64,000 nt of DNA from NCBI GenBank assembly GCA_000002445.1, contig CP000069.1:1344001-1408000 (forward strand), in the 5' to 3' direction. Shown here one piece after another: positions 2,036 to 52,783 of the stretch. The position numbers and the translations under genes were made by a program. Origin of the DNA: Trypanosoma brucei (Eukaryota). The notes beneath the pieces were generated by a model. The model searched no databases. It was not told the DNA's origin and worked only from the letters and a program-made list of their open reading frames with translations. The first letter of the stretch is position 1, and the number at the start of each line of letters is the position of its first letter.

Positions 2036-2058
2036 ATATATATATATATATATATATA
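2036..2058. repeat. (AT)n microsatellite in the METK 3' spacer. Representative; it is present in every unit and its length varies between units by roughly 9-12 repeats.
   Basis: The atatatatat... run lies ~250 nt after each METK stop. Its length visibly differs between units, as does that of the poly(T) run. Confidence 0.85.
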
Positions 2059-2604: not shown

Positions 2605-2699
2605 CTACTTCGCGTATACACCTCAGTGTACCCCTATTTCGTTTGCTCTACTCCGCAAGGTTCTACATCAATCCTACCGCCCTTGTTTCGTGAAAGGTG

Positions 2700-16524: not shown

Positions 16525-17434
16525 TGTGTACTGCGCACGAATAATCAGGCACACCTCCTTGCCCATCCTCACTGTTTGCGAGTAACTGCTCGCTTCCCGC
16601 CGAGTGGGTTCCTGTTGGTAACAACACCCGCCTTCGCTTATTTTTCGTTGTTACGTGATGTCATGTACTTGGCGATGTTGTGCATAAGGGAGTGGAGTAA
16701 GTAATAACAGTAGACAGGAGGTGGACGTTGCAATTAAATTGTTTGACAAGTGTGAGGGTAGAGGGGGAAAGAATATATATATATATATATAACATATACC
16801 TATTTATTATTTTTAGGTATGCTATTTCGTACACTAACGCTGTACTTTAATTCCTGGTATTTCCCACATATTGTTTCTCGGATGCGGTTTGCTCCTCATT
16901 CTTTACCTTTTTTGTTTTCTTTCGTTTTTACTCCATCATATGTTACCTTGACTGTAAACGTGTTGTTGTAAGTACTGTGACCTGTTAGCGTTACGTTTCA
17001 ACTTTTTTCCCCTGCCTTACTGGGAGGTAAGTGTGATAACGACAGCAAGTGGGTACCATTATGATTGTAATTGTAAGAAATATTATTTCTGTTACATCAA
17101 CCTTTGTCATTTAACTGTCACTCACGTATGGTAAGTCCTACGGTCTGTCGCCGGGGCTTTGCTTACCGTTCGTTGCTCTATCCGCTGCTGCGCACATGTA
17201 GTGAAGTACCTCGTTGTAACTGTAGTAAATAGCTAATCTCCTATGTCTCCTTATTATTGTCCTTCTTTCTTCTCATCTCTTTTGTTTTTTTTTTTTACCC
17301 TCAATTCCTCTCCCTGTCGGATGTACCATTAGTTTAAAGCTACTTCGCGTATACACCTCAGTGTACCCCTATTTCGTTTGCTCTACTCCGCAAGGTTCTA
17401 CATCAATCCTACCGCCCTTGTTTCGTGAAAGGTG

Positions 17435-18628
17435 ATGTCCGTGCGCCAGATATTCTTCACGTCGGAGCATGTGAGTGAAGGTCACCCCGATAAACTATGC
17501 GATCAGGTGTCGGATGCCGTACTGGATGCATGCCTTGAGCAGGACCCGCTCTCTAAGGTTGCATGCGAGACGTGCTCAAAGACGGGGATGGTGCTTGTGT
17601 TTGGTGAGATCACAACGAAGGCTGTGATTGACTACCAGAAGGTCGTACGTGACACGGTTAAGGAGATCGGCTTCGATAACACTGAGAAGGGGTTGGACTA
17701 CCGTTCACTGAACCTGCTTGTGGCCGTTGAGCAACAATCACCCGATATTTACCAGGGCCTCGGTGACTTTGGCGGGGAGAACCTCGGTGCTGGAGACCAG
17801 GGCATGATGTTTGGTTATGCGACGAATGAGACGGAGACACTAATGCCACTCTCTTACGAACTTGCGCGCGGTCTTGCAATGACATACAGCGAGTTGCGAC
17901 GCAATGGTGGTCTTCCGTGGGCGCGCCCCGACGCTAAGACGCAAGTGACAGTGCAGTACGAATATGACACCCGCGGTGGCAAGCAGTTGCTGACACCTAA
18001 GCGAGTGGCTGTGATTCTTGTTTCTGCCCAGCATGACGACGGTGTGTCAAATGAAACCATCCGCGAGGACCTGGTGAAGAAGGTAATCAGCACCACCATT
18101 CCCGCGAAGTTCCTCGATGAGAACACCAAATATCACTTGAACCCATCTGGGCGTTTCGTCATCGGTGGCCCACATGGTGACGCTGGGTTAACTGGTCGCA
18201 AGATAATTGTTGACACGTATGGCGGTTGGGGTGCCCATGGTGGTGGCGCGTTTTCTGGCAAGGATCCCTCGAAGGTGGACCGGTCGGCAGCGTATGCTGC
18301 TCGCTGGATTGCGAAGTCTCTGGTGGCCGCAGGTCTTGCAGATCGGTGCCTTGTACAACTTTCGTACGCCATTGGAGTTGCGGAACCGCTCAATATCCAT
18401 GTCGACACATATGGCACTGGTAAGCGCGATGACGAGTATATATTGGGTATTGTGCAGAAAAACTTCCGACTGCGCCCGTACGACATAATCAAGGAACTTG
18501 ATCTTCGTCGGCCGATATACCGCCAGACTGCCTGTTTCGGGCACTTTGGGCGTGTGGACACGAACGGGAAGGGAGGATTCACGTGGGAGGTGCCCAAAAC
18601 ACTAGAGGGTCTTAGTGACGTGCAGTAG
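17435..18628 (+). CDS. METK1: S-adenosylmethionine synthetase, array copy 9 (the last).
   Basis: Protein identical to the consensus. The spacer after it is truncated at 18727, where unique sequence begins. Confidence 0.93.
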
Positions 18629-19772: not shown

Positions 19773-21182
19773 ATGAGGCCACGATGTGGCTACGCAAACG
19801 CCGTGGTCACTTTTTCGTCGTTGCCATGTTTGTTGACAACGTTCTGCTTCGGTGCGGAGACTTGTGGCGCATTTACTGCGGCGATAGTGTGCCCACAGCG
19901 ATGGTGCGCGGCGTTAGGTGAAAGGAGGTTGAGCCGAAGGCGTTACTCCGCGGCAAACACAAAAGGACGGTGCAAACACGTTTATAACATCATTAATTCA
20001 TTGAAACTGGTTCCCAAAGCGGTGCTCGCTTCAGAATTTGATAAATTGCATCCACGGGATAAGTTGGACGTGAAACGGGCGCTCGTACGAAGACGTAGCC
20101 GTCGGAGTAGTTGTTTGCCTGTTTTTAAAAGTGCGTTGTTCAATAGAAAGTACTTTTTCAGGGAGGCAGATCTAACGGAAGATAGTACGCTCGGTCGTGG
20201 TCCTGGGGGGCAGGCAACGAACAGGCGGAAACAGACGGCTATTGTGAAGCATGTGCCAACTGGAATTACCGTGAAGTTCAGCAAGTTTCCCTCTTACTGG
20301 CTTAACAGGAGGGCTGCACGGGATGTCCTCAACCTGCAGCTGGAGGAACGTATGCTCGGGTCGAAATCGGAGCTCGGCCGTATACGGGATCTGCGAGAGA
20401 GGCGGCGTTTGTGGCGGCTCAGAACAACGTGTAAATTAGTAGAAAGGGCAAGTAAAATCGCTGCAAAACGTAGTCAGAGACATGAGTTCCATTCCGTACT
20501 TACCAACCAACAACCCCTTTCCCGCGTGGCGGTTCTGCAGTTGGACCTTGACCAAAGTAAACAGCCGATGTACTTGTCTGACCTCTTCGATAGGGAGTGC
20601 GGGCAGTGGTGGCCGTTGCTTTCGAAAGCCTTCGTGAGAATAAATGCTGAATCATCGAATGAAAAAAGCGCTAAAGTACCGGATATATTGTTCTACACGT
20701 TCCCTTCAGTTCGCAGGCACGGCGAAAGTGTAACTTCCGTCGAGCAGTATGAGATGAACCAGGTTAAAAAATGTGCCGCCGATGAAGTATGCCTCGCGAA
20801 TGTGAAACGTGCGTTGAAGTGCTTTGTTGAACTGTTTGGTCTTCGGTTGTACGAGAAGCCAACGACAACCGCAAAAAACTGTAGTGTTTTGGTGCTCGGA
20901 CGTGACGGTCTCAACTGGATGGAGTTCCGGGGGAGGATGGTGGATTCAAGTGGTTTGATGACCCCATTAGCACTTGCTTGCTTTGCTCATGTGACATTGA
21001 GTCTTGCACAGCTTCGGTGTGCGCGTGAGGTGAATGCAATCCGGTCCTTCTTTCGTCGCGAAGCAAAAGCAGGGGTGCCGGGGAAATGGGCAGTACAGGG
21101 TCAAGAGGGGATTACTGAGGTGTTAAGGTGCTGTGAGCTCCATGAAGAGCATCACCCGACTGGCGTGGACGGTGTTGTGTAA
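19773..21182 (+). CDS. RF1-domain (GGQ) peptidyl-tRNA hydrolase family protein of the ICT1/C12orf65 type, with no codon-recognition domains. Probably mitochondrial.
   Basis: ADLTEDSTLGRGPGGQATNRRKQTAIVKHVPTGITVKF carries the class-I release factor GGQ catalytic motif and context. The remainder is basic and Arg-rich. The N-terminus is uncertain: the track ORF starts at GTG 19770 and the first ATG is 19773. Confidence 0.55.
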   Translation: MRPRCGYANAVVTFSSLPCLLTTFCFGAETCGAFTAAIVCPQRWCAALGERRLSRRRYSAANTKGRCKHVYNIINSLKLVPKAVLASEFDKLHPRDKLDVKRALVRRRSRRSSCLPVFKSALFNRKYFFREADLTEDSTLGRGPGGQATNRRKQTAIVKHVPTGITVKFSKFPSYWLNRRAARDVLNLQLEERMLGSKSELGRIRDLRERRRLWRLRTTCKLVERASKIAAKRSQRHEFHSVLTNQQPLSRVAVLQLDLDQSKQPMYLSDLFDRECGQWWPLLSKAFVRINAESSNEKSAKVPDILFYTFPSVRRHGESVTSVEQYEMNQVKKCAADEVCLANVKRALKCFVELFGLRLYEKPTTTAKNCSVLVLGRDGLNWMEFRGRMVDSSGLMTPLALACFAHVTLSLAQLRCAREVNAIRSFFRREAKAGVPGKWAVQGQEGITEVLRCCELHEEHHPTGVDGVV

Positions 21183-30916: not shown

Positions 30917-30918
30917 GT

Positions 30919-32700
30919 GTGGAACTGCGCGCCATAGTTTGTTGTTCGTTATCAAATGAAGCTCTATATGATGTTTTGTTCTTCGTTTCTTTTACTTTTT
31001 TTCGTTTTTTTTTCTTGTTGTTTTTATGTTTTATGTTTTATGTTTTTTTTCTTCTTTTTTTTATTTTTATTGTTTTTTTTGTTTATTGTGTTTTTTTTTT
31101 ACGTTTTGGTTCTCGCTAGCTTCTTTTTTTTTTTCGTTTTTGCTACCTCCCTTTTTTCTCGCGTTATTGATTTGCTCTCTCTCTCTTTTTTTTTTTTTTG
31201 CAAAGCTATTTATTTTGTTTATTAAACTCTACGGGGGAGAACAGTTTTTTTTTGTTTTATTTTTGTGTGTAACACGGGGTCGTGGGAGAGTTAGGGGGGT
31301 GGGAGGGGACAAAAAAAAAAAGAAAAATGAAATAGAAAAAACCCAAACAAAAAAAAGAACAAAAAGAAGGATAATAATTATAAAAGAAACGCACATACAA
31401 CAACTGTCTTTTGTAGCACGAACAGTGTTACGGCGGCAGTAACAACAACAGCAAAAAAAAAAAAAGCAAATATGCCGCAGGTTTGATGAGGGATTTATGT
31501 TTTGCATGCGGAAGTAATTTGTGTTATGGCGAAGGGCACACCACAACAAAAATACAAAAGCAAAAAACAAAAAACAAAAAACAAAAAACACAAAAACACA
31601 AAAAAAACACGAGCCACGAAACAACAACAACAATAACAACAACAACAACAACGCAGTAAAACAATAAAACAAAACAAAACGAAAAGGAAAGAACACACAT
31701 GCACACATATACATGCAAATACAACAACAAGGAATTTAAAAAAAAAACAAATATTTGAAAAAGAAAAAAGCAAAGTGAAAGTATAAAAAAAAAAGAAAAG
31801 AGACGGAAAGAAGAAGGGGGACACTTGTGTTTGTGTTTGTGTATGTTTATGTTGATGTGTGTGGGAAGGGGAGGGGGAAGTGGCAATGTGAAGTGAAGTG
31901 AAGTGAAGCAATAAATTTTTAAAAGAAAAAGAAAAAAAAAGAAGCAAAAGAAAAAGAAGCAAAAGAAAAGAAAAGAGAAAGCTCGAACCCAATGAATCCA
32001 AAAGAAAGTTCTTTTTTAAAGTTAAACTTAAAGTTAAATATAATAACACCACTAAAACAAACAAACAAACGAATAAACAACAACAACAACAAAAAGAAAG
32101 CAACCGGATGGGGAAATATATATATATATATATACGAAAATGTTCGACAAAAAGAAAAAGAAATAACATTGTTTAATTGTTTGCGTGTGTTTGGTGTACG
32201 TGTGTTCGTTTGTGTGTATGTGTATGCACTGGAGAGTTCGAAAGTGTGTGTTAGGTGTGATAGGGGAATTTCGTTTTCAAAACAAAAACGAACAAACAAA
32301 CAAACTTCTTTTTAATTCCTCAAGGTAGGCAAAACAAAACTAATTTTTTTTAAAAAAAATTAAAAACAATATTCACTACCACTGCACGATAGTGAATATT
32401 GTCTGTCTGTCTGTTTGTTTGTTTGTTTGTGTGTTTTTTTGTGTGTTTGTGCTTGTTTGTACTACCCATTGCTGCTTTACATATATATGTTTGGAGACTC
32501 GCTCTTCCATGTTATCTCGTTTCTTTCCCTTGAATTTGTTGGAGTGGAGTGGGAGGGGGAGAGGAAAAAAAAAAATAAAATAAAAATAAAAACTGTTTGT
32601 TTTTGTTTTTGTTGTTTGTATTTCCGTTTCACTTTTTTCTTCTTTTGTCTGTCTGTGTTCTTATATTTTTAATATTGTTTCATATTGATTTTCATTTTAT
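30919..32700. repeat. ~1.8-kb low-complexity region. The + strand is T-rich at 30950-31260 and A-rich with (AAAAC)n, (AAC)n, (GTGAA)4 and (CAAA)n microsatellites at 31300-32350; an inverted (TTTG/TCTG)n block follows at 32392-32470.
   Basis: Read directly from the sequence. All ORFs the track reports here on both strands are poly-F, poly-L or poly-K translation artefacts. Confidence 0.85.
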
Positions 32701-32973
32701 TGCTCCCGCTCTCCCTACTCTTTTACTCTGTTAGCTCCCATATTCTCCTCAGAACCTGCGTCAAAACTTCACTTTTTTTTTCTTTGCAACTTCTTCTTTT
32801 TTAAAAAAAAATCTCTTTATCTAATGTTCGTTTCATCCACACTAGTAAATATAAGAAAGGAGAGAAAAAACACATATTTGCTTATAATATAAGAAGCATA
32901 CGCACATACATATATATTTATCTATCACAAAAATAGCAATAATAATAATAGCATATATTATTATACATTATAT

Positions 32974-32978
<5 letters not shown>

Positions 32979-33004
<26 letters not shown>
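32979..33004. repeat. (GT)13 microsatellite immediately upstream of the cyclin start codon.
   Basis: ttttgtgtgtgtgtgtgtgtgtgtgtgtgtta. Confidence 0.9.
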
Positions 33005-33008
<4 letters not shown>

Positions 33009-33033
33009 CGTAAAAAAGGATTTCACAAGTTAC

Positions 33034-33675
33034 ATGTCGGAAAGGGACAAGCAGCGAAGGTCGCTGGAGCGGGAGCGCATGGCGACTGTCATTTTTTCGT
33101 ATATTTCCCATTTGATGAGGACACATGAAGAAGAAACGACAGTTGCTGATGAGTTCATTCCATCAACGAAGTTTTTTCGTACAGAAACTCTACCAAACAT
33201 ATCACTTATTCACTACGTCCGACGCGTTGTGGAACATATGAACTGCTCTCCAGAGGCGTACATATTTGCACTCGCGTACATTCGAAGGTTATTCGTTGCA
33301 GGTTTCCCGTTACACACTCATTCCATTTATCGCCTTCTTCTCACCGCCGTTGTCGTTGCGACGCGAGTTCGGGATGATTTTTTATTCTCCAAAAAATATT
33401 ATTCAAAAGTGGGAGGCGTAACCGCTTGCGACCTCAACATGATGGAAATTCATTTTCTCGCTGATCTTCTTGAGTATCGAGTGGAGGTATCACCTGATGA
33501 GTATCGGGTTCTTTGCAATGAAATCACGGCGCTGCTGTCATCTGAAGTCTCAAAGTTTGACGGCAATTCATCAAACCCAAATAATGACACCGCTGCTGAG
33601 GGAGTTGCATCAATTCAAGAGCCGGTGGGAAACTCAAAGCCCCGTTGGATGTCGGAGTGTTGTTTATATTGGTAA
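33034..33675 (+). CDS. PHO80-like cyclin (cyclin N-terminal domain). Tentatively the T. brucei CYC7 orthologue, from memory only.
   Basis: PEAYIFALAYIRRLFVAGFPLHTHSIYRLLLTAVVVATRVRDDFLFSKKYYSKVGGVTACDLNMMEIHFLADLLEYRVEVSPDEY matches the PHO80/PCL cyclin box. The track ORF starts at TTG inside the (GT)n tract; the first ATG is 33034. Confidence 0.7.
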   Translation: MSERDKQRRSLERERMATVIFSYISHLMRTHEEETTVADEFIPSTKFFRTETLPNISLIHYVRRVVEHMNCSPEAYIFALAYIRRLFVAGFPLHTHSIYRLLLTAVVVATRVRDDFLFSKKYYSKVGGVTACDLNMMEIHFLADLLEYRVEVSPDEYRVLCNEITALLSSEVSKFDGNSSNPNNDTAAEGVASIQEPVGNSKPRWMSECCLYW

Positions 33676-34649
33676 CAATGTAATCATTTCAGCATATGAA
33701 CCCATACATGATGGTAGTGTAAATAAATATGTAGGCAAATTTATGCAAATGTTTGTGTGCCTTTATGTATGGGTGTAATTCTCATTGTGTGTCTCCAGTC
33801 CCTTTCAATTTGTTTTTTATTTTTAGTTTATTTTTGTTCTGTGATTTTATTCCTTCCTTTTCCCTTCCCGTATTGTTCGCGCTATTAGTGTTGCACGTCT
33901 TCAAGTATTGGTAAATAAATAAATAAATATATATATATTTCTTTGTTATCATTATCATTGTTGTTATTATCATTTACTCACTGAGTTTATGTTTACTTTA
34001 TTGTAGTGTTACCATTCATTAATTGTTCTCTCTAACATTTATTTACTTTCACTATTTTCATTATTTTAATTTTATCTTCCCAGGAGGTGGAGATCGGGGG
34101 TTGAATAGGAGGAGGAAAGTTCTGCAATAAACCTGAACTTTCTTTGTTGTTTCTCTTTTTTATTTAAGAAAAAAAAACTTTCCCCTCCCGTTCACAAACA
34201 CTGTAGGGAGCGATGAAACCACTTTTGGCATTTAACAGAAATAGATTTATATATATATATATTTATATTTTTTAAAAATTTTGACCACCCTCCCTTACAC
34301 TTATTTATCATCATCGGGGTTTTAATATATATTTTTTATTATCACAATGTAATTGTACCGTGAGGGGACTTACTATTATTTTTGAAATGCAGCTACTAAG
34401 ATCGGATGCTGTGTAGAATATATATATTTTTTGGTTTTTTTTTTGAGAGTTACTCAGCCACCGCGTAGCATTGGTTTCCTTTTGTCTCTTTTTATTGTAC
34501 CTCATATATATATATATATATATGTATTCGTGTATGTCCAAAATTAACAAACGAAATAAATGCATAAACAAATATGTGATGCATATATTTATTTCTTGTT
34601 TCTCTAAAAAAAGTAGGAAGTGTATTGGAGAGGAGTTAGGGTTATAGAG

Positions 34650-36308: not shown

Positions 36309-36385
36309 ATGTGTCATGTAAAAACAGTGCATGAAGACGAGGAACATGCGTGCGTGTGTACAATTATTTGCCAGAAACTTGGGAC

Positions 36386-36388
<3 letters not shown>

Positions 36389-36419
<31 letters not shown>
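36389..36419. repeat. (AT)15 microsatellite.
   Basis: acatatatatatatatatatatatatatatac. Confidence 0.9.
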
Positions 36420-36420
<1 letters not shown>

Positions 36421-36713
36421 GGCTCCTCAATGGCCTTTTCACCCTTCAACCACCTGTCAGCTTTTTGCGGGGAAGAAGGGTGATTTTTTACATATGTTAT
36501 TTTATCACTTTCTTCCCCCCCCCTTCGTTCCTGCGGAAACCTATTCGGTGGTTCTCTTCTGTCCATGTGACTAATCACTGAGTTGTCCTTAGCTGCAGCC
36601 AAGTAGTTTCAGCACTTTATTTATGTATTTTCTTTTTTTTCTTTTACTTTCTCTTCCGCTAATTATCTTTGGTTGCGTGTCTGTGACGGCTCAGTCGTAG
36701 GAAGCTAGAAGCC

Positions 36714-37328
36714 ATGGGGGCGTTCATGTACATGAATGAGCTATGGAAGAAGAAGTCTTCCGATGTGATGCGCTTCATCCAGCGTGTTCGTGCGTGGGAA
36801 TTCCGTCACCAGCACACCATCGTACGTCTGCGTCGCCCCACACGTCCTGAAAAGGCCCGTATGGTTGGCTACAAAACCAAACAGGGTTATGTTGTGTTCC
36901 GCGTGCGTGTGCGACGTGGTGGACGCAAGCGCCCCGTACACAAGGGTATCACATACGGTAAACCCAACACTGCTGGTGTGCTCGGCAGGAAATTGAACAA
37001 GAACAACCGCGTTGTGGCCGAACAGCGTCTTGGAAAGAAGTACGGAAACCTGCGCGTGCTCAACTCCTATTGGGTAAATGCGGACTCGACATTCCTGTGG
37101 TATGAAGTGGTGGCGGTGGACCCGATGCACCGCACCATTCGCCGTGACCCGCGCATCAATTGGATCGTCAACGCTGTTCACAAGCACCGTGAGCAACGTG
37201 GTCTTACATCTGCGGGTCGCAAGCACCGTGGGCTACGGCAGAAGGGCCACAAGGCCTCCAAACTCCGCCCATCTCGCCGTGCAGCGTGGCGCCGCAACAA
37301 CCGTATGGTGTTCCTCCGCAAGCGTTAG
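36714..37328 (+). CDS. RPL15: 60S ribosomal protein L15 (eL15).
   Basis: [33 protein letters not shown]...[27 protein letters not shown] is the canonical eL15 sequence; length is 204 aa. Confidence 0.93.
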
Positions 37329-37836
37329 TCGTACATGCATTCGCAAAGCAAGTTGTTGGGGATATTCCGTGTCACAATTCCTTGGTTGTTTTCCTTTTTA
37401 CGACACCGTCCCTTTTTATTTTTACTTTTTTATTTGGTGAGTGGGATGAGAGGTGGGTATGGACATGGGAGAGATGGTGGCGAAACCGACCCTCTTTCTT
37501 CGGTACTCGATTCCTGTTGTATCCCTTGCCCCTTCTCACTTCTGTTTCAAACTCTTCACTTTATATTTGGCTTTGGGCAACGTGTTTTGCTTCCTCTAGT
37601 GGGCCGTTTCTCCCTGGAGTTGCGGATTCTGTGATTTGGATACTTTCAAACATATATGCTTCCTCCATTTTTTTTTTTTTGCTCCTTCTTCAATTCTTTT
37701 CCTTGATTGCTTCTCTGCCGGTACATATATGTATATGTATATACCTGCCTTGAGTGTGGATTATATAACGTTTCGTAGTACTGCATCGTAGTTTCGGTTC
37801 ACTCTTGTAAGACAGCATTGTGGAAGTGTTGAACTG

Positions 37837-38511
37837 ATGGCGGTTGAATCCGATGTGTTGCCTCCGCTAACGCGCCTCCCTCCTGATGAGGCCCTCAGTT
37901 TTATCTGGAAGATAACCCGATCAATTTTAATACTTGTTTTTGTCATTTTCGCAGTGATCCCTGCATTATGTGGCACCGTGTACCCTCCTTTTTCAGCTTT
38001 GTGGGATGTCATAGCTGCGATATCTCCATACACGTGGGGTTCCGTGGGAATAGGTATCGGTATTTCCCTTTCCATCGGTGGTGCGGCATGGGGAATATTG
38101 ACAACTGCTTCGTCTCTTAGCGGAGCGGCAATCCGTGCACCTCAGATACGGAGCAAGAATCTTATATCCATAATTTTTTGTGAAGCTGTTGCCATCTATG
38201 GTGTTATCTTATCCATTATTATGATGGGTAAGATGGAAGCAGATGGAAAAGCAGTGGACAGCAGTGGGATCTTCACTTATCGTGCAGCTGCAGCTGGTTT
38301 TACGCTTTTTGCAGCTGGTTTGGCAGTTGGTCTTGGGAATATGTGCTGCGGAATTGCTGTTGGTGTTGTCGGGAGCAGTTGCGCCATTGCTGACGCTCAT
38401 AGCAGCTCACTATTCGTGAAGATACTTGTAATTGAAATTTTTGCTTCAGCACTTGGTATATTCTCCGTTATTGTTGGTATTCTCATGGCCCAAAAGGCGG
38501 TGATGGTATAA
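37837..38511 (+). CDS. V-type H+-ATPase proteolipid subunit c double-prime (VMA16-like).
   Basis: Five predicted TM helices, the glycine-rich proteolipid helices (GSVGIGIGISLSIGGAAWGI, GLAVGLGNMCCGIAVGVVGSS), the conserved Glu in FCEAVAIYGVILSII, and a length of 224 aa typical of c double-prime. Confidence 0.8.
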   Translation: MAVESDVLPPLTRLPPDEALSFIWKITRSILILVFVIFAVIPALCGTVYPPFSALWDVIAAISPYTWGSVGIGIGISLSIGGAAWGILTTASSLSGAAIRAPQIRSKNLISIIFCEAVAIYGVILSIIMMGKMEADGKAVDSSGIFTYRAAAAGFTLFAAGLAVGLGNMCCGIAVGVVGSSCAIADAHSSSLFVKILVIEIFASALGIFSVIVGILMAQKAVMV

Positions 38512-39093
38512 AGCGTGGAGGGGGAAAAAAAAAGAAAAAGGGAGGGAGCGAAGAAGAGGGAAAGAAAAGGGTTTGATGGGAGGGATAAAAAATTAGAGAA
38601 AAGTTCAAAAAGGACAAAATAAAGAGGAAGAGGAACCCCCTCACGGTATTGGAAAATGCCGTCCATACGGGTTTTCCCACCCCCGGTTTTGGATGCCTTT
38701 CACAAATAACGTCAGAATACTTGAGTTCTTTTTTATTATATTTTACAACCCCTGCTGTTTATCTTCCTTTCCTAACCCCGTCAATCACCTTTCTTTTTTT
38801 TTCTTCTTCTGTTTTTTAAATCCACAATACACTCTGAATCTTACATTTTCTCCTCTTCTCTTTTCCAGGTTCTTTTGCCTTCTGAGCCCTCCGTAGGGCT
38901 CCGCTGCAACAGGTACTCGACTACAACATTAAGCCTGCCGCGTTACTACGTTCTACGTAGTATCGGTTGTAATCTCTTCTTTTCTTTTTTTCCCCCTCTC
39001 TGTTTAGTTGAAGTTCTTACCTTTTTTTTAAAAATTATTTTTTCTCCCTTCTCCATTTTAATGCTTCCCAAAGGAAGGTTGGTGAGAGAGCTT

Positions 39094-39114
39094 TGTGTGT
39101 GTGTGTGTGTGTGT
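39094..39114. repeat. (TG)10 microsatellite in the 5' flank or UTR of the next gene.
   Basis: ctttgtgtgtgtgtgtgtgtgtgtcttatg. Confidence 0.9.
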
Positions 39115-39131
39115 CTTATGCTGGTGTAGGA

Positions 39132-39587
39132 ATGGCTGCCTCACAGCTTATCGCGACCCGCTTTACAGATTTGCTCGCTGAAGGGAATATTGAAAGTGCC
39201 CTCAAGTACATAGCTAATGATGTGGTTTACAACACATGGTTGGGTGTTGTGTACGGAAAGGATAATGTGGAAGTATTTCTGCGCGATAACGTCCGATTTG
39301 TTCACCACGGGAGGAATTACAATCGATGGAAACAAGTTCAACACAGTTTGGATGCCTCACTCAAACAGTTCACTGTGAATGATGTTAGCGGCTACGACGA
39401 GAGCGCGCTTGACGTTCGCTCGTATTATGATTCAGAGGGATATGACTCGCAGGGATATGCCACATTTGAGCGTGACGGGACAATTGCATCACATGCTAAA
39501 TTCGCTGTGTTTCATGTAAAGGTGAAGGAGACAGTTGTTTTACGTAACAACAAGGTGGTATTGGTTAATGTGTCGAAGCGAGCATGA
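39132..39587 (+). CDS. Hypothetical small protein of 151 aa, possibly with an NTF2/SnoaL-like fold.
   Basis: The ORF has an upstream pyrimidine tract and an AG. The track start lies inside the (TG)n tract; the first ATG is 39132 (MAASQLIATRF). The fold assignment is a weak impression from the alternating beta-strand pattern, not a motif match. Confidence 0.4.
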   Translation: MAASQLIATRFTDLLAEGNIESALKYIANDVVYNTWLGVVYGKDNVEVFLRDNVRFVHHGRNYNRWKQVQHSLDASLKQFTVNDVSGYDESALDVRSYYDSEGYDSQGYATFERDGTIASHAKFAVFHVKVKETVVLRNNKVVLVNVSKRA

Positions 39588-39938
39588 AGGTTGTGCGCCC
39601 GTTCGTATCTTTTTTCTTTAGCCGTCTCCTTCTACCTTCCTGAGCCGTTTTAAGCGGCATAATTCGCATGTTCTTGTGTGACATATTCGTAAGTGTAAAT
39701 CTAGTGACTTGGTTTTATTTTACTTCGCTGCTTCTTTCCACTATAACAAAGCTTTATTAATTTCTCTCTTCTTATTTCCTCTTCCTATCCGTTTTGTAAA
39801 CGCCCTTTACACACATGTAAACGCGCTTCCATTTTTAATTTTTTTTAATTTTTTGAAAAAAATATAAACATACCTGTGTTTATATTGCTGTTTATATTTT
39901 ATATTTTGATACAGTTAAAGATACAAACGACATTGGCA

Positions 39939-46184: not shown

Positions 46185-48644
46185 ATGGACCATGAGGAAG
46201 TTCACGCTGGGGCAAGGACGGGGGCTGGAGGGGGTGAAGAGGATGAAATAACGGAGAATATGGAGTCGGGAACTTATGATGGGACGCAGCAGCAAGCGAA
46301 TTACGATCCCAATGAGCAACTGCAGTATTATTATGATCCCGTTGATGGGAACTACTATTACTATGCACCCCAATATGCAAATGAAGCTGATCCGGCTGGA
46401 GACGTAAATGAAAATGTTGGTAGGTCTGACAAGCGTGTCACTGCGCAAGAATTGGAGAATTGGGAACCAGTGCGCTACAACTGGTTTTCAGACACTGTTT
46501 TGAGCATATTTATGTCACTTGGGTATAAGTTATACCTGTGCATGTTGCTCTATTGTGCCATCATCCTACAATTGATGCTGTCACTCAACTGGACATTGCA
46601 GGTTCTCTATAGGTTTTACGCACCGCAGAGTGAGGGGGATCCGAGCACGTGGTCACCCGTGTGCTTCTTCACTGTTTTTATCCTTCTTAGTTTTTTCGTC
46701 GTCACTGCCCTTTGCACCTCCTGCGATATGCTGCACGGGGCTTGGCGTGCAAAACGCGAGGACATTTACTTTTGGGGAGCTACAACGTGGGCAGGCAAGT
46801 CACCCCCTGTCTGGTTACATTTCTTTGTCATCCTCCTCACCACTGGCTTTCCATTTCTTTGGGCTACTGTTGAGGCGGCGGTGGCAAAAGGCAGCTTTAC
46901 CTACTTTCTATGCATTTATGCTTTCATTGCCGTTGTAACCGTGGAGTTTATGATCGTTGGTTGTTACGTGTGGTTTTACTTCTTGGGGATTCGAGGAAAA
47001 ATAACGGCAATGAGATTGTACAGGGGCCGCGATGATTTCGAAACATGGGAAAGGGCGTCAAAGTACAGTTACAACAAACAACTGAAAAAGCGATGGTACC
47101 ATGCTTCAACTCTATTGGAAGAGTACGGCCTAGACGAAAAGACGCTGCGCAGCAATGCGCTTTCATTTACAATCGGCTATGTTCCGCTTTTTGCGGTGTA
47201 CACGGCGCAGGCGTTTAGCACCAACGTGGACTATCCAGAGATGACCTGGGCCGCAATTTGCACCGTCGCGCTATGTTGCGTGTACTTTTTAGCATGGTTC
47301 ACTGTGTTCCGTAAAAGGTCACACTGGTCTGTGTACTTTGCTATATTTCTAATTGTAACTTTAGTACTAACCGGTATTATTGCCGCCATTACGTGTAACC
47401 TCCCCGGTGCACTCGGGCTTATTATTGTGCTGTTTGTTCTGTCTCAATGTATGCTTGCACGTAAGAGGGAACACACACTCACGCGGGTTGAGCAGCGCAC
47501 GTTGTTTGGGATGACTGATACAACTGAGCAGGAAGACCCCATTCCCAACCGCCGTGTTGACATGCATTTGTGTTGCTGTGGGGATGTGTTGGCAAACTGT
47601 TTCCGCTGTTTAGGGGCAAGAGAGGCTATTGGTTACCGTCACCCGGATGTTGTACGTGTGGAGGAGCAGTACAACCGGGAAAATGTTTCCCTCAGAACTG
47701 ATCAACGATTACTTATGTGGTGGTGGATATTTGTGATGGCTGTCGTTGCTTCTATTATTGGCATTGGGAATCATATGGCGTATGATTACCGAACAGAGAT
47801 AGCGGCAGCAAACGGTGCTCCCATTGAAGGGAACAACACTGGGCTGTTTCTATGCCAGATCAGGTACAACAAAAATGGTTCGGCACCTTTGGGTTTGTAC
47901 GACTTGTCGCTTTTGAGTGCTCTTGCGTACACAGTAGGAGAACCAGGAGAGAGGGATTTCGCTACATGGTTTTCTTTCTTTCCCAACTTTGTGCGCATGT
48001 ACCCGCGTCAGTTGCCACCAAATTCTACATATGCCACTGATGGAATTGAGATACCCTTTTCGCATTATGTGGACATGACAAGCGACTATCACGTCTTTAC
48101 TCTCAATTCTAACTCTCGCGGGCTTTCTTTCATGCGAGACGTTGATGAGTGGGGCATCTCCATCACCTTGCAGTTGGCGAAGGTTTTCTCCCCCTTTGTT
48201 GGTATGTGGCCGGAAGGTTTCCAGCGTTCTTTTGTGCAGCGGGCCGCATTTTTGCAGAGTTGGTTTCCAGGTGTTGATGTTCTCGGTAGCATCTCCAAAT
48301 CCATCAGTCAACTGATCGACGATGGCAAGAAGGAGCGTATTCTTCTTGTTGGTGATGGTTTCAACGGTGGCTACGTGAAGTTATTGTCGACCATTCATGG
48401 AGTGCCGTTTGTTGCATTAAATGCTCCAGGTATAGGTCAAAAGGCTGCTTTGGGAACGGAGGGTACACAGGTGTTGTCACCCCGTTCACTTCTGTCTTAC
48501 GTGGATTCAATTGAGGACACCACACACACCATTTATATTCCTTGTGACTCCCGTCTTTCTTTGGTCCGGTGCAGTAAAATTGAAGCCACTGTTAACACCT
48601 TACGGGGACTGTGCGGTGATGTTCACGGAAGGATGCTGCACTAA
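46185..48644 (+). CDS. Polytopic membrane protein of 819 aa, at least 8 TM helices, with a C-terminal globular domain carrying a degenerate lipase-like G-x-x-x-G-G motif.
   Basis: The acidic N-terminus is followed by multiple 20-aa hydrophobic segments (LSIFMSLGYKLYLCMLLYCAIILQLML, VCFFTVFILLSFFVVTALC, VWLHFFVILLTTGFPFLWATV, FLCIYAFIAVVTVEFMIVGCYVWFYFLGI, and others). The C-terminal 350 aa include ERILLVGDGFNGGYVKLLSTIHGVPFVAL. Confidence 0.5.
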   Translation: MDHEEVHAGARTGAGGGEEDEITENMESGTYDGTQQQANYDPNEQLQYYYDPVDGNYYYYAPQYANEADPAGDVNENVGRSDKRVTAQELENWEPVRYNWFSDTVLSIFMSLGYKLYLCMLLYCAIILQLMLSLNWTLQVLYRFYAPQSEGDPSTWSPVCFFTVFILLSFFVVTALCTSCDMLHGAWRAKREDIYFWGATTWAGKSPPVWLHFFVILLTTGFPFLWATVEAAVAKGSFTYFLCIYAFIAVVTVEFMIVGCYVWFYFLGIRGKITAMRLYRGRDDFETWERASKYSYNKQLKKRWYHASTLLEEYGLDEKTLRSNALSFTIGYVPLFAVYTAQAFSTNVDYPEMTWAAICTVALCCVYFLAWFTVFRKRSHWSVYFAIFLIVTLVLTGIIAAITCNLPGALGLIIVLFVLSQCMLARKREHTLTRVEQRTLFGMTDTTEQEDPIPNRRVDMHLCCCGDVLANCFRCLGAREAIGYRHPDVVRVEEQYNRENVSLRTDQRLLMWWWIFVMAVVASIIGIGNHMAYDYRTEIAAANGAPIEGNNTGLFLCQIRYNKNGSAPLGLYDLSLLSALAYTVGEPGERDFATWFSFFPNFVRMYPRQLPPNSTYATDGIEIPFSHYVDMTSDYHVFTLNSNSRGLSFMRDVDEWGISITLQLAKVFSPFVGMWPEGFQRSFVQRAAFLQSWFPGVDVLGSISKSISQLIDDGKKERILLVGDGFNGGYVKLLSTIHGVPFVALNAPGIGQKAALGTEGTQVLSPRSLLSYVDSIEDTTHTIYIPCDSRLSLVRCSKIEATVNTLRGLCGDVHGRMLH

Positions 48645-49472
48645 GGACCCGCATGCGGCCGTATCGTTTACGTCTCGTTTGTTCTTTCTCACGTTTTTGT
48701 TTTTTAGGTTCTCCCTATTGTCTACCCATCGCTTTTGTTTTTTTTTTCCTTATCGTTTCTCTCTTCTCTGTAATTACAGATTTACGCTCCACTTTCGTAT
48801 TTTTGTTATTTATTTCTACTATTTATTGTTATCATTATTGACATTATTATTAATTTATATTTACTTAGTATGTCTGTGAAGAGAAGAGTTAGCCCATTTT
48901 TTGTGCATTTTTTTTTTACTGACTGTTCGCTACCGTGGTGTCATCAGGGATTCCGCAGCGCCTTTCTTTGTTCATTCATTCATCCCTTTGATGATGTTCG
49001 TATCGGTTTCGTTCTTTATAGACAAGAATTCGGAAATTTAGGGCTCCTTATGCTCTCTCGTTATAGAAGACCTCATTATTTGTGCGAGTTCGCTGTTTTT
49101 TTTTTTCTTTCCCCCTAGTTGGGCACCCTCAGTTTCATGCTCACTGTGCAGCTATCCATTTTTTTTTTTTAAATCAAGCTTAGGGATATGTGTGTATGTG
49201 TATGTAGGCACATGAAACTGTGGTTACCCTCCCACGCTCATCTCTCCCTCTTTTAGTTTCTTTACCAAATAAATCAGTTTCTCATGTATCGCGGTAATAG
49301 ATGTTTTATATTTGTTTCTGTGTTTTGTGTTTTTTCATAATTTTCTATATATATATATATTGTCCCGTCGTTCCGTCTCTACCCTTTCATCTGCTTTTTT
49401 TTTAAATTCTCTCCACCTTTCTTTGCACTTTAGAGTGATTTGTAATTGGAGGCAAAGCTGAAGAAAGGGGCA

Positions 49473-49691
49473 ATGATTCGACGGACAGTAGTGACGTCAG
49501 TACGGTACACACGAAAGTTTGCAGCGGCTGCTACTCGACCGAGCGCCAACATCGCGCAGAAAGTTTCCAAAGTTAATGGCGCAACAGGTGCTGACGGCGA
49601 CTCGATTGTCGACAAGTTGTTTGTGTTGGGTTGCGTGAGTGCCGTTTCAGCATGGGCCGTTTTTGGACCCGCTGTCCAATCACACCACTAA
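49473..49691 (+). CDS. Candidate small protein of 72 aa with an N-terminal presequence-like region and a C-terminal TM helix. Speculative.
   Basis: MIRRTVVTSVRYTRKFAAAATRPS is basic, hydroxylated and lacks acidic residues; LFVLGCVSAVSAWAVFGPAV is hydrophobic. A 50-nt pyrimidine tract at 49380-49430 ends in AG at 49431-49432, 41 nt upstream of the ATG, inside an otherwise 1.6-kb ORF-free gap. The track ORF starts at TTG 49446. Confidence 0.3.
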   Translation: MIRRTVVTSVRYTRKFAAAATRPSANIAQKVSKVNGATGADGDSIVDKLFVLGCVSAVSAWAVFGPAVQSHH

Positions 49692-50257
49692 ACTTATGGT
49701 GGAATGTAGGAATGTAATTAATTAGCACAGCTTCCCCTGGCTTGTTACTGCTATCAATGATTTACGATTTATATGTCTGCCTTTTTGTGGCTGTTATCGT
49801 TTTATCACAACTTCTTCTTAGGAAATCTTCTCTTTATACATGCCAGATGCGTGCATGTGACATGTGGAACGGGTAGAGGAGAAATGGGAGTATGGATTAT
49901 AGGTTTTTTCCCGTTTCTACAACTTTCTAGGTTGGTGGGAATTCCTTCCACCAAGTTTCAAACCGTCTCATAACTCTCTCCCCTTCCTTTGCCTATGGTT
50001 AAGTCACATTAACTACTTACACGGCAATGCTGTGCCTACAGTTTAACCCATTATCGTTGATGTTATCGTGGGTTCGATACAGGAGAAACCCCATGTAAAT
50101 ATATTTATATATCCTTCTCTGTCCACTCGTTTCCTTTTCTGTTTTTTTTTGCTCCGCGCATGCGTGTGTTTGGTGGTGGAAAACAAAACAAAAAAACACA
50201 AAAAGTATTGATTCTCCTGTTGCAGGTGGGATAGACAACTGTAGGAACGCGGCACCT

Positions 50258-52783
50258 ATGTTTAACGTAAGAACGCCGATGTCGCGCGATGGGCGAGTTC
50301 ATGGAAGATGCTCGCCTGTGCTTGAGCTTTCATCTCCCCACGGGTATACTCCTTCGCTTCAGGAACGGGTATCACCAACGGTTGCTCCAACCCCGTGTTT
50401 CCGCAGCGAGGGGTGCCGATCCCCAGCAGTTCAGGGATTCAGACCACCTCCTCCGATTATTAGTGTGGGGCAACTAATTTATCCGACAGACCGCGACTCG
50501 CCCGCGACTCCTGGACTAAACACTGCCATTCCCTCCTCTCCATCACCATTGGCTGAAGCACGTTTTGGGATTGCGAGCGCAGGGCACATCCACCGGCCCT
50601 CCGGTATCGCTCCCGTGGCGCGTAAACTATCGACACCGTGTGCAAACCCTGTTGCCGAGGCAAAGCCAGTGGCGCGGCCCTCGTTTAGTAGTGATTGTGG
50701 TCGCATCGTGGAGCACCGCGACCCAACAACACATGAGGTTATCTCAAGTTATCGCTGTCGCATGCTGCTGGGCGCAGGTGGTTTCGCACAGGTGTTTGAA
50801 TTTGAAGAGGTGTCTACAGGTATCAGTTACGCTTGCAAGGTGGTGGAAAGGAAGAACCTAGCGCGTGGCGGGTCTTCGGCGAGATTTCGCATGGAGGTCG
50901 ATATACACAGCAGGATGAATCACCCTAATATACTTCGCTTCATAAAGTCATTTCAAGATGAATTTTACCATTATATAATACTTGAACAATGCAGCCAGGA
51001 GAGTTTAATGGATCTTTCAAAGAAGCGCGGTGCTTTCAACTGTCAGGAGATACAGTACATCATGCGACAGATTGTGTCTGCGGTAGAGTATATGCACAAC
51101 AGCATGATTATTCACAGGGACCTGAAGTTGGGGAACGTCTTGATTGACTTCGAAGGGAATATGAAGCTCGGGGACTTTGGCTTTGCTAGCGAGTTCACTT
51201 CGCCGTTTGAAAAGAAAACAACGGTGTGTGGAACGCCAAACTATTTGGCTCCGGAAGTTCTTGCATGCAAATCAACTGGTGTGGGATATGGGTTGGAAGC
51301 GGATATCTGGAGCTTAGGGGTGCTTCTTTATGCCCTTGCCGTTGGGAAGCCGCCGTTTGAAGCAAAAGATATCAGCGCCACGTATCACAGAATTCGAAAA
51401 GTGGATTACTCTTTTCCGGAAGGTATATCGATTCCGGAACCTTGCAAAGACCTTATTCAGTGGATGCTCCAGGGCGACCCGCAGAAGCGACCGGTTCCGG
51501 TGCAAATATTGGCGCACAGTTTTCTGTGTTTGCCTCTTCCGCCACGCACAGCGCCAAAGTCTCTTGTGCCTGTTGACGGACAGGTGGGGGGGTCCCGAAG
51601 TGAAAGGTGTGGATCTCGTCGGATCTCGCCTCCACCCGTGCAGGCACCTGCAACCCGCTGCAGTAGTGGGGTCGACGGGCGTGCGGACCGCTTCGCCTTG
51701 ACGCAAAACCGTATGGGTCCAACCGACTGCGAGGATCGGGCAGTGCTCCAAGAGGCTGCGGGAGTAGAGAGGTGTGGGGACGAAGCTGCGTCTGCAACTG
51801 CAGGTGGCACATTGACCACTGAGAAAAGGAACACAATTAAGCCTCCACCGCCTACTGCAATGCTTCAGAGTTGCGTGTCTTGTAGCAAGTACGGGTTTGG
51901 GTTTCTTACCCTTCAGAATGGCTGCCGGTATCCGGAGGCTTTCCTGAATGATAAAACCAAATTGGTTTTCGATCGCAACACGGATACTGTACTCTATTAC
52001 GACCGGTCGCGGCTTCAGGCAGTGACGAGAGAGTCCAGGAACCATAGTCCACTCCTCAGCGAAGATTTGGCCAAAAGGGGGTTCTGTGACGAATTGGTTG
52101 TTTTTCGCAACGCTTCCCGCACTCTGGTGCGTCGGAGTGAAAACAAGGACGACGGCGACCGCATGGAGGCTGCAGCAGCAAAGAAACTTGCCATAATAAA
52201 GTTTTTTCTACCATGTCTAGAGTGCGGCACAAGGGACAAGCGAATGACGGTCCTAACGTGTGCCCTTAGGGGCTGGTCCCCTTCTTGGGGGACGGAACTG
52301 TTTGCTCCTTGTCGAACGGGTGGCGAGCGACCTGACGTCGTTTACGTAAAGGACGCAGTTGCTGGGACCCTACATGAGCTAACTAATGAGCATCAGGATG
52401 TTGACATGACACTTCTCGCTGCTCGCATGTCCGACTACTCCTTTCACGTTTCCATGCGTTGTGATGCGGCCCAACAATCCCTACACCGTCCTATATATGA
52501 TGGCGGGGAAGCTAATGTCACGGAGCAACAATGGAGTTTTGATGTTTTGGTGTACTCCGGTTTCCATGCGCTTATGGCATTCGAGGATAGAGGTACACGC
52601 TTCGCTATGTCCTTTGAGGATCTACGAAATCACACAGAGGCAACGATGGGTGGGAAGGTGTACTTTGCCGCTGGGTCTACAGTTTGCAGCAAGCACATAA
52701 CGATACCAACACCAACACTACAGGCAATAGGTGTGCTACTCCGAAGAGTTCGCTGCTGTGCAAATATTGTGGAGTGCTTTTAA
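50258..52783 (+). CDS. Polo-like kinase family protein with a ~155-aa N-terminal extension and a proline-rich linker before the polo-box domain.
   Basis: The kinase domain (aa ~160-420) has YRCRMLLGAGGFAQVFE, IHRDLKLGNVLI, GDFGFA, TVCGTPNYLAPEVL and GKPPFE with TYHRIRKVDYSFP, all diagnostic PLK-type features by comparison with human PLK1. The polo-box is SCVSCSKYGFGFLTLQNGCRYPEAFLNDKTKLVFDRNTDTVLYYDRS (compare PLK1 [39 protein letters not shown]), followed by a second polo-box-like repeat. Confidence 0.75.
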   Translation: MFNVRTPMSRDGRVHGRCSPVLELSSPHGYTPSLQERVSPTVAPTPCFRSEGCRSPAVQGFRPPPPIISVGQLIYPTDRDSPATPGLNTAIPSSPSPLAEARFGIASAGHIHRPSGIAPVARKLSTPCANPVAEAKPVARPSFSSDCGRIVEHRDPTTHEVISSYRCRMLLGAGGFAQVFEFEEVSTGISYACKVVERKNLARGGSSARFRMEVDIHSRMNHPNILRFIKSFQDEFYHYIILEQCSQESLMDLSKKRGAFNCQEIQYIMRQIVSAVEYMHNSMIIHRDLKLGNVLIDFEGNMKLGDFGFASEFTSPFEKKTTVCGTPNYLAPEVLACKSTGVGYGLEADIWSLGVLLYALAVGKPPFEAKDISATYHRIRKVDYSFPEGISIPEPCKDLIQWMLQGDPQKRPVPVQILAHSFLCLPLPPRTAPKSLVPVDGQVGGSRSERCGSRRISPPPVQAPATRCSSGVDGRADRFALTQNRMGPTDCEDRAVLQEAAGVERCGDEAASATAGGTLTTEKRNTIKPPPPTAMLQSCVSCSKYGFGFLTLQNGCRYPEAFLNDKTKLVFDRNTDTVLYYDRSRLQAVTRESRNHSPLLSEDLAKRGFCDELVVFRNASRTLVRRSENKDDGDRMEAAAAKKLAIIKFFLPCLECGTRDKRMTVLTCALRGWSPSWGTELFAPCRTGGERPDVVYVKDAVAGTLHELTNEHQDVDMTLLAARMSDYSFHVSMRCDAAQQSLHRPIYDGGEANVTEQQWSFDVLVYSGFHALMAFEDRGTRFAMSFEDLRNHTEATMGGKVYFAAGSTVCSKHITIPTPTLQAIGVLLRRVRCCANIVECF

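What the first reader, a model, noticed from the sequence alone, without database searches (positions are those of the whole stretch)
49380..49691. Possible unannotated small mitochondrial membrane protein gene in a 1.6-kb gap
Inside the otherwise ORF-free interval 48645-50257 there is a 72-codon ATG ORF (49473-49691). Its product has a basic, hydroxylated N-terminus free of acidic residues (MIRRTVVTSVRYTRKFAAAATRPS) and a single C-terminal hydrophobic helix. A 50-nt polypyrimidine tract and AG (49431-49432) lie immediately upstream, the same arrangement seen before every confident gene in this window. Trypanosome respiratory complexes and ATP synthase contain many such sub-10-kDa single-TM subunits. 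These are commonly missed by ORF-length cut-offs.
Basis: inference. Interest (0 to 1): 0.5.

Follow-up and report, generated by a model that had tools for sequence, protein, structure and literature searches.

The report
Known small trypanosome mitochondrial-type protein gene
The 72-codon ORF is a real, expressed and conserved Trypanosoma brucei gene for a tiny single-helix, probably mitochondrial membrane protein, but it was already catalogued in 2010-2014 as transcript Tb6.NT.77 and its function is still unknown.

Summary
The ORF at 49473-49691 (+) exists as described and is a genuine protein-coding gene. A syntenic ORF lies after the same upstream gene in T. theileri, T. grayi, T. vivax, T. 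cruzi, Leishmania tarentolae, Novymonas and Bodo saltans. dN/dS is 0.11-0.26 among Trypanosoma species, and it is the only one of seven ATG ORFs in the gap with cross-species matches.

The find is not new. The exact peptide is listed as Tb6.NT.77_1 in Ericson et al. 2014. That paper reports one peptide in each of three mass-spectrometry sets, including a mitochondrial proteome, and an RNAi test that was not lethal in procyclic cells. Vasquez et al. 2014 report ribosome footprints at 132 (bloodstream) and 342 (procyclic) rpkm.

The product has a conserved M-[LIF]-R-R-[TS] basic start, a G-A-[TS]...D...D-K motif, one confident transmembrane helix, an invariant Trp and an invariant C-terminal His. 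It has no Pfam family and no match to any solved structure, so it is not a modelled T. brucei ATP synthase subunit. It is also not among the 2026 complexome candidates for complexes II-V. An inner-membrane location is likely but only inferred.

The parts
49380..49431 (+). Pyrimidine-rich tract upstream of the trans-splice acceptor (83% C/T)
   Evidence: Read directly from the sequence; composition.
49432..49433 (+). AG spliced-leader acceptor dinucleotide
   Evidence: Sequence. The published transcript starts at Tb927_06_v4:1393434, and the ORF begins at nt 40 of that transcript. This puts transcript nt 1 at window 49434, immediately after this AG.
49434..50059 (+). Mature mRNA Tb6.NT.77 (625 nt; Tb927_06_v4:1393434-1394059)
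   Evidence: Vasquez et al. 2014 suppl. file 8: 14.95 RNA/cell, RNA 154/404 rpkm and footprints 132/342 rpkm (bloodstream/procyclic). Ericson et al. 2014 Additional file 3.
49434..49472 (+). 5' UTR, 39 nt, with no upstream ATG
   Evidence: The ORF is at position 40-255 of the transcript.
49473..49691 (+). Coding sequence, 72 codons plus stop
   Evidence: dN/dS 0.11-0.26 and codon-position differences of 0.32/0.23/0.63 among Trypanosoma species. It is the only conserved ORF in the gap. Identical to Tb6.NT.77_1.
49473..49544 (+). Residues 1-24: basic, acid-free, presequence-like N-terminus. The M-[LIF]-R-R-[TS] start is conserved in the family.
   Evidence: Alignments A1 and A2; charge count; low-confidence helix at residues 2-20 in AlphaFold2. 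A targeting function is inferred.
49575..49616 (+). Residues 35-48: conserved hydrophilic motif N-G-A-T-G-x-D-G-D-S-x-x-D-K. D43 and D47 are invariant; G36, A37 and K48 are nearly invariant.
49617..49667 (+). Residues 49-65: single transmembrane helix rich in small residues, with invariant Trp61
   Evidence: Hydropathy; AlphaFold2 helix 45-64 with 10-residue block mean pLDDT of 77-94; conservation.
49668..49688 (+). Residues 66-72: short polar tail P-A-V-Q-S-H-H ending in an invariant C-terminal His
49692..50059 (+). 3' UTR, about 368 nt. It ends about 50 nt before the pyrimidine tract that serves the downstream kinase gene.
   Evidence: Transcript end coordinate; sequence context.

Best explanation
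This is a bona fide nuclear gene of Trypanosoma brucei, located at Tb927_06_v4:1393473-1393691. It lies inside a plus-strand polycistron, between an 819-aa multi-pass membrane protein gene and the Polo-like kinase paralogue Tb927.6.5100.

Shown: the pre-mRNA is trans-spliced at the AG at 49432-49433 and polyadenylated near 50059, giving the 625-nt mRNA Tb6.NT.77. The first AUG opens a 72-codon ORF. It is translated in both life-cycle stages, about 2.6-fold more in procyclic forms.

Inferred: the M-[LIF]-R-R-[TS] basic N-terminus acts as a mitochondrial presequence. The single helix (about residues 45-65) stops transfer in the inner membrane. The conserved G-A-T-G-x-D-G-D-S-x-x-D-K segment would then face the matrix, and the seven-residue tail ending in His would face the intermembrane space.

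More speculative: the mature protein of roughly 5 kDa packs through its small-residue helix against a larger inner-membrane complex as an accessory or assembly subunit, most likely one present in both life stages. It is neither a modelled ATP synthase subunit nor a nominated complex II-V component.
For: Gene reality
- The ORF sequence is present as described.
- A syntenic ORF follows the same upstream gene in T. theileri, T. grayi, T. vivax, T. cruzi, L. tarentolae, Novymonas and Bodo saltans.
- Purifying selection: dN/dS 0.11-0.26, and third codon positions vary about twice as much as first and second positions.
- It is the only conserved ORF of seven in the gap.
- A profile search finds 17 family members, all kinetoplastid or unnamed environmental sequences.

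Expression
- The exact peptide is listed as Tb6.NT.77_1 [40-255].
- Transcript coordinates, RNA levels and footprint levels are published.
- One peptide was found in each of three MS sets, including the Panigrahi mitochondrial proteome.

Targeting and topology
- The N-terminus has no acidic residue before position 41 and carries 8 K/R residues.
- The M-x-R-R-[TS] start is conserved across the family.
- There is one confident helix at residues 45-64.
- No signal peptide was predicted by Ericson et al..
Against: - No direct localisation, import or topology experiment exists for this protein in the papers found. Tb6.NT.77 was not among the seven proteins that Ericson et al. localised.
- Each MS data set has only a single peptide.
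- A hydrophobic helix seven residues from the C-terminus is also the layout of a tail-anchored protein.
- RNAi in procyclic cells was not lethal.
- No partner complex is identified. There is no solved-structure match and no Pfam match, and it is absent from the complex II-V candidate list of the 2026 complexome study.
- Conservation is not significantly confined to one face of the helix (shuffle p = 0.07).
Confidence: 0.75

Rival explanations
1. The protein is real but tail-anchored. The C-terminal helix inserts post-translationally into the mitochondrial outer membrane or the ER, leaving the N-terminus in the cytosol. Alternatively the hydrophobic end is a GPI-attachment signal for a surface protein.
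For: - The helix ends seven residues from the C-terminus.
- The Bodo saltans orthologue is labelled 'GPI-anchored surface protein, putative' by its source.
- A peptide in a mitochondrial fraction would also fit an outer-membrane protein.
Against: - A GPI anchor requires an N-terminal signal peptide, and none was predicted. The N-terminus is basic and hydroxylated, not hydrophobic.
- The M-[LIF]-R-R-[TS] start is among the best conserved parts of the protein. From my own knowledge, this is typical of trypanosomatid matrix-targeting presequences and would be unexpected for a cytosolic tail.
- The invariant C-terminal His argues against removal of this end by GPI transamidase.
Confidence: 0.13
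2. It is a stoichiometric small subunit of ATP synthase or of cytochrome complexes III/IV.
For: - Its size, presequence-like start and single helix resemble many sub-10-kDa OXPHOS subunits.
- RNA and footprints are 2.6-fold higher in procyclic forms.
- Small unannotated subunits are missed in practice: ATPEG4 of L. tarentolae had to be found by re-examining the genome.
Against: - The identical T. brucei sequence matches no chain in the solved-structure library, which should hold the complete T. brucei ATP synthase 8AP6. The family profile, which includes the L. tarentolae sequence, gives no significant match either.
- None of the 19 complexome-nominated complex II-V candidates, nor the subunits built into the L. 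tarentolae CIII2/CIV2/CV maps, lies on T. brucei chromosome 6 or at this Leishmania locus.
- Translation is substantial in bloodstream forms, which lack complexes III and IV.
Confidence: 0.08
3. It is a chance ORF in a non-coding or UTR-derived transcript, with no functional protein.
For: - The ORF is short, and the pyrimidine tract plus AG is common on this strand.
- RNAi gave no lethal phenotype.
Against: - The frame is conserved across kinetoplastids with dN/dS well below 1.
- Length differences between species keep the frame.
- Ribosome footprints are high, and peptides were found in three MS sets.
Confidence: 0.01

Closest known systems
Tb6.NT.77 / Tb6.NT.77_1 (Kolev et al. 2010 novel transcript; Ericson et al. 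2014, BMC Biol 12:14, PMC3942054)
   Same: Identical 72-aa sequence. The ORF is at nt 40-255 of a 625-nt transcript, and the coordinates Tb927_06_v4:1393434-1394059 coincide with window 49434-50059.
   Different: Nothing; it is the same object. The papers give no localisation or function for it.
DPX39_060054700, hypothetical protein of T. brucei equiperdum, and orthologues annotated as hypothetical proteins in T. cruzi, T. grayi, T. melophagium, Novymonas, Porcisia, Leishmania spp., Leptomonas pyrrhocoris and Bodo saltans
   Same: Same family and same genomic position. The T. b. equiperdum protein is 97% identical (V6L, A60G).
   Different: All are uncharacterised. The spacer between the N-terminal start and the conserved motif varies in length. 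Leishmaniinae end in H-Q-H rather than S-H-H and lack the helix cysteine.
Other kinetoplastid small mitochondrial proteins from the same screen (Tb11.NT.28, inner membrane; Tb10.NT.87, matrix)
   Same: Sub-10-kDa kinetoplastid-restricted products of previously unannotated transcripts, detected by MS.
   Different: Those two are essential in procyclic cells and were localised experimentally. Tb6.NT.77 was not lethal on RNAi and was not localised. No sequence relationship was tested.
Lineage-specific single-helix OXPHOS subunits, e.g. ATPEG4 of kinetoplastid ATP synthase
   Same: Similar size, and easily missed by annotation.
   Different: No sequence match to any modelled chain, and not nominated as co-migrating with complexes II-V.

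Membership tests
Tb6.NT.77 small-protein family (kinetoplastid-conserved ORF) | Sequence identity to the published Tb6.NT.77_1 peptide, with matching transcript coordinates | tested here: met
   Exact 72-aa string found in Additional file 1 of PMC3942054. Transcript coordinates map onto window 49434-50059.
Tb6.NT.77 small-protein family (kinetoplastid-conserved ORF) | Syntenic, frame-conserved orthologues under purifying selection | tested here: met
Presequence-targeted single-pass inner mitochondrial membrane proteins | Basic, acid-free N-terminal segment able to form an amphipathic helix | tested here: met
   First acidic residue at position 41, preceded by 8 K/R. Helix at residues 2-20 predicted at low confidence. 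M-x-R-R-[TS] start conserved.
Presequence-targeted single-pass inner mitochondrial membrane proteins | One hydrophobic transmembrane helix | tested here: met
   Ericson et al. also list one predicted TM.
Presequence-targeted single-pass inner mitochondrial membrane proteins | Experimental mitochondrial location, presequence cleavage and N-in/C-out topology | not testable with these tools
   The only evidence is one peptide in the Panigrahi 2009 mitochondrial proteome, as reported. No localisation data were found.
Trypanosoma brucei F1Fo-ATP synthase subunits | Sequence present among chains of the solved T. brucei enzyme (PDB 8AP6 series) | tested here: not met
   phmmer with the T. brucei sequence against all PDB chains found no hits at E <= 10.
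Kinetoplastid respiratory complexes II-V (accessory subunits) | Co-migration with the complex in BN-PAGE, or presence in the cryo-EM model | tested here: inconclusive
   Not among the candidate or modelled subunit identifiers named in PMC13631411. I could not check whether this small ORF was in their search database, or whether PDB 9Z9K/9ZAK/9ZB4 are in the PDB copy searched.
Named small mitochondrial membrane protein families in Pfam (such as EMRE or Mic10) | Match to any Pfam family profile | tested here: not met
   No Pfam-A family matched at E <= 0.01 for the T. brucei protein. Scanning ten family members found only two stray hits at E = 0.26.
GPI-anchored surface proteins (label on the Bodo saltans orthologue) | N-terminal signal peptide plus a cleavable C-terminal hydrophobic signal | tested here: not met
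   The N-terminus is basic and hydrophilic. The SignalP column is empty in Ericson's table. The C-terminal His is invariant.

The most novel reading that the evidence does not exclude
The protein is an unrecognised pan-kinetoplastid subunit or assembly factor, conserved from Bodo to Trypanosoma and Leishmania. It would belong to an inner-membrane machine active in both life-cycle stages, for example the fragmented complex I, a carrier or translocase module, or an ion-handling complex. The invariant D-x3-D-K motif on the matrix side and the Trp and C-terminal His on the intermembrane-space side would serve as contact or ligand-binding residues.
Probability: 0.3. Interest if true: 0.4.

Novelty: already known. 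Interest (0 to 1): 0.2.

Why it matters
For biology the gain is modest, because the transcript, translation, peptide evidence and conservation were already published.

What this analysis adds:
- A family alignment reaching Bodo saltans.
- A defined set of invariant residues.
- Exclusion from the modelled ATP synthase.

Function is still open. A roughly 5-kDa, kinetoplastid-restricted, probably mitochondrial membrane protein that is well translated in both stages is a reasonable candidate for targeted follow-up.

Tried and rejected
- Single-sequence and profile searches of all PDB chains found nothing significant. The best profile hit was mS58 at E = 1.6, a low-complexity Ala/Ser stretch.
- Pfam scans of the protein and of ten family members found nothing.
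- An exact-sequence look-up in the assembly collection found no gene called with this product.
- Literature searches found no characterisation. I searched Tb6.NT.77, peptide strings and plausible gene identifiers (Tb927.6.509x, 5085, 5080). The only hit concerned the neighbouring kinase Tb927.6.5100.
- Parsons et al. 2015 could not be retrieved.
- ORF genomic coordinates were not found in the stored supplements of Vasquez et al., so no ribosome-release score or RIT-seq fitness value was obtained.
- The images of Ericson Figure S2 are not held. I therefore cannot say whether Tb6.NT.77 was one of the two unnamed slow-growth knock-downs.
- Comparison with T. b. equiperdum is too close to be informative: 2 substitutions in the CDS (0.9%) against 1.3% in the flanks.
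- The test for a conserved helix face was not significant (p = 0.07).
- The antisense ORF 49430-49615 also appears opposite the T. grayi orthologue. I rejected it as a by-product of the conserved sense frame. Its ATG-initiated part, 49430-49552, gives no significant cross-species match, and the codon-position pattern fits the plus frame.
- No fold search was run, because a single helix gives meaningless matches.

Full report
**Observation**

The window carries an ATG at 49473 and a stop codon ending at 49691. The product is the 72-aa peptide MIRRTVVTSVRYTRKFAAAATRPSANIAQKVSKVNGATGADGDSIVDKLFVLGCVSAVSAWAVFGPAVQSHH.

The first acidic residue is at position 41, after 8 K/R and 8 S/T residues. The only strongly hydrophobic stretch is residues 49-65.

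The segment 49380-49431 is 83% pyrimidine. The 39 nt between that AG and the ATG contain no other ATG.

Two details in the finding are inaccurate:
- The gap 48645-50257 is not ORF-free. It holds six other ATG ORFs of at least 30 aa, one of them longer at 82 aa (48870-49118).
- A pyrimidine tract plus AG does not discriminate on this strand. 24% of random 400-nt stretches reach the same best 40-nt pyrimidine content.

**Organism and locus**

The upstream 819-aa ORF is 100% identical to a T. brucei gambiense protein. The downstream 841-aa ORF is a kinase with a weak Polo box. It is probably Tb927.6.5100: that identifier appears in a review of trypanosome Polo-like kinases, but I did not read the passage, so the link rests on chromosome position.

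Published coordinates for transcript Tb6.NT.77 are Tb927_06_v4:1393434-1394059. The ORF sits at nt 40-255 of that transcript. Transcript nt 1 therefore falls at window 49434. I infer that the window is Tb927_06_v4:1344001-1408000.

All large ORFs in the window are on the plus strand, consistent with a single polycistronic unit.

**Is it a gene?**

I fetched the syntenic regions through homologues of the upstream gene. An ORF of 65-84 aa on the same strand follows that gene in:
- T. theileri (L001 8814-9044)
- T. grayi (L002 8775-9029)
- T. vivax (L003 9061-9288)
- T. cruzi (L007 4001-4255)
- L. tarentolae (L004, about 9394-9639)
- Novymonas (L005 9444-9698)
- Bodo saltans (L008 5001-5198)

On a codon alignment, Trypanosoma species differ at 32%, 23% and 63% of first, second and third codon positions. 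Where dS could be estimated, dN/dS is 0.11-0.26 among Trypanosoma species. Most of the more distant pairs are saturated at synonymous sites. Length differences between species keep the frame.

As a control, I ran tblastn with all seven ATG ORFs of the gap against the seven syntenic intergenic regions. The 72-aa ORF gave E-values from 6e-25 to 2.5e-4 in all seven. No other ORF did better than E = 0.3.

Searches of the large protein collections recover only kinetoplastid or unnamed environmental sequences. Named members are almost all labelled hypothetical or uncharacterised.

**Already published evidence**

The exact peptide is listed as Tb6.NT.77_1 [40-255] in Additional file 1 of Ericson et al. 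2014 (PMC3942054). Additional file 3 of that paper records:
- a 625-nt transcript;
- one predicted TM helix and no signal peptide;
- tblastn hits in T. congolense, T. vivax and Leishmania;
- one matching peptide in each of three sets: the Panigrahi 2009 mitochondrial proteome, the authors' own MS, and Butter 2013.

It was one of 42 ORFs knocked down in procyclic cells. It is not among the seven lethal ones or the two named faster growers. Whether it was one of the two unnamed slow growers could not be read.

Vasquez et al. 2014 (PMC3973304, suppl. file 8) report for this transcript:

| Measure | Bloodstream | Procyclic |
|---|---|---|
| RNA (rpkm) | 154 | 404 |
| Ribosome footprints (rpkm) | 132 | 342 |

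The same table quotes 14.95 RNA copies per cell from Kolev et al. Both values are well above most of the other rows of that table that I read.

The ORF is missing from the gene calls on record for this exact sequence, but it is annotated in T. b. equiperdum (97% identity).

**Anatomy of the protein**

Alignment of 15 family members and per-column conservation show five regions:
1. A conserved M-[LIF]-R-R-[TS] start.
2. A variable Ala/Pro/Lys-rich spacer of very different length between species.
3. A conserved hydrophilic block G-A-[TS]-x-x-(G)-D-[ST]-x-x-D-K. D43 and D47 are invariant; G36, A37 and K48 are nearly invariant.
4. A helix rich in Gly/Ala/Ser with an invariant Trp61.
5. A short tail ending in an invariant His: S-H-H in Trypanosoma, A/P-H-H in bodonid-like sequences, H-Q-H in Leishmaniinae.

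AlphaFold2 run on this alignment gives a low-confidence helix at residues 2-20, disorder at 22-36, and a confident helix at 45-64 with 10-residue block mean pLDDT up to 94.

**Mechanism**

Shown:
- Trans-splicing at 49432/33.
- Translation from the first AUG in both life stages.
- Purifying selection on the frame.
- A peptide in a mitochondrial fraction.

Inferred:
- The N-terminus is a matrix-targeting presequence. From my own knowledge, M-L/F-R-R starts are typical of trypanosomatid presequences.
- The helix arrests in the inner membrane.
- The acidic D-x3-D-K block faces the matrix and the His tail faces the intermembrane space.

More speculative:
- The mature peptide of about 5 kDa is an accessory or assembly subunit of a larger complex.
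- The complex would be one present in both stages. Translation differs only 2.6-fold between stages, whereas complexes III and IV are absent from bloodstream forms.

**What it is not**

- phmmer with the identical T. brucei sequence finds nothing among all PDB chains. This excludes the modelled T. brucei ATP synthase and mitoribosome chains.
- The family profile, which includes the L. tarentolae sequence, finds only insignificant low-complexity matches.
- There is no Pfam family.
- The 2026 complexome and cryo-EM study of L. tarentolae and T. brucei (PMC13631411) names its nominated and modelled complex II-V subunits. None is on T. brucei chromosome 6 or at this Leishmania chromosome 30 locus.
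- That negative is soft. The study itself had to rescue an unannotated 62-aa subunit, ATPEG4, by hand. I also could not verify that their PDB entries are in the copy searched.

**Rivals**

The main alternative is a tail-anchored outer-membrane or ER protein. It fits the helix ending seven residues from the C-terminus and the 'GPI-anchored surface protein' label on the Bodo orthologue. It is disfavoured by the conserved basic N-terminus, the lack of a signal peptide and the invariant C-terminal His.

A chance ORF is excluded.

**Verdict**

The gene is real but already known. Its function and exact location remain untested. Interest is low to moderate (0.2).

Noticed in passing
window 594-18628 (+): Nine tandem copies of a 397-aa ORF at a spacing of about 2.1 kb. 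The first copy matches all three S-adenosylmethionine synthetase Pfam domains. The upstream pyrimidine tract and AG spacing are identical for the eight copies from 2700 onward.
   Followed up: partly
window 50258-52783 (+): An 841-aa protein kinase with only a sub-threshold Polo-box match (17.4 bits against a cut-off of 23). It is probably the Polo-like kinase paralogue Tb927.6.5100. The gene is present in all Trypanosoma loci examined. It is absent from the syntenic position in L. tarentolae and Novymonas, where the small ORF is followed directly by the CPSF-A/RSE1-like gene.
   Followed up: partly
window 46185-48644 (+): An 819-aa multi-pass membrane protein with no Pfam domain, conserved from Bodo to Leishmania and always immediately upstream of the small ORF. 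One source names the T. vivax homologue 'UPF0227 family'. Its function is unknown.
   Followed up: no
window 49430-49615 (-); L002 8684-8953 (-): An antisense ORF overlaps the small gene in both T. brucei (61 aa) and T. grayi (89 aa), with a shared ESPS-x-PVAPLTL stretch. It is most simply a mirror of the conserved sense frame. Its ATG-initiated part, 49430-49552, has no significant cross-species hit.
   Followed up: partly
L001 8814-9044; L003 9061-9288; L004 9394-9639: The orthologous small ORF is not among the called genes in the T. theileri, T. vivax and L. tarentolae assemblies. It is called in T. grayi, T. cruzi, Novymonas and Bodo saltans. The Bodo copy carries what is probably a wrong name, 'GPI-anchored surface protein'.
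   Followed up: yes
window 19773-21182 (+): A 469-aa ORF with an RF-1 (peptide chain release factor) domain match just below the Pfam cut-off (33.2 against 35 bits).
   Followed up: no
window 49190-49210 and 49345-49362: Short (TG)n-like and (TA)n microsatellites in the intergenic region upstream of the small gene. The T. theileri and T. grayi syntenic spacers also carry TA or TG/CA repeats.
   Followed up: no
window 30917-34649 and 36309-39938: These gaps, each over 3 kb, lie between the ORFs of at least 250 aa that I listed. By synteny with T. grayi and T. theileri they should hold shorter genes: ribosomal protein L15e, the V-ATPase proteolipid subunit and a 157-aa protein. I did not examine them for further small ORFs.
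   Followed up: no
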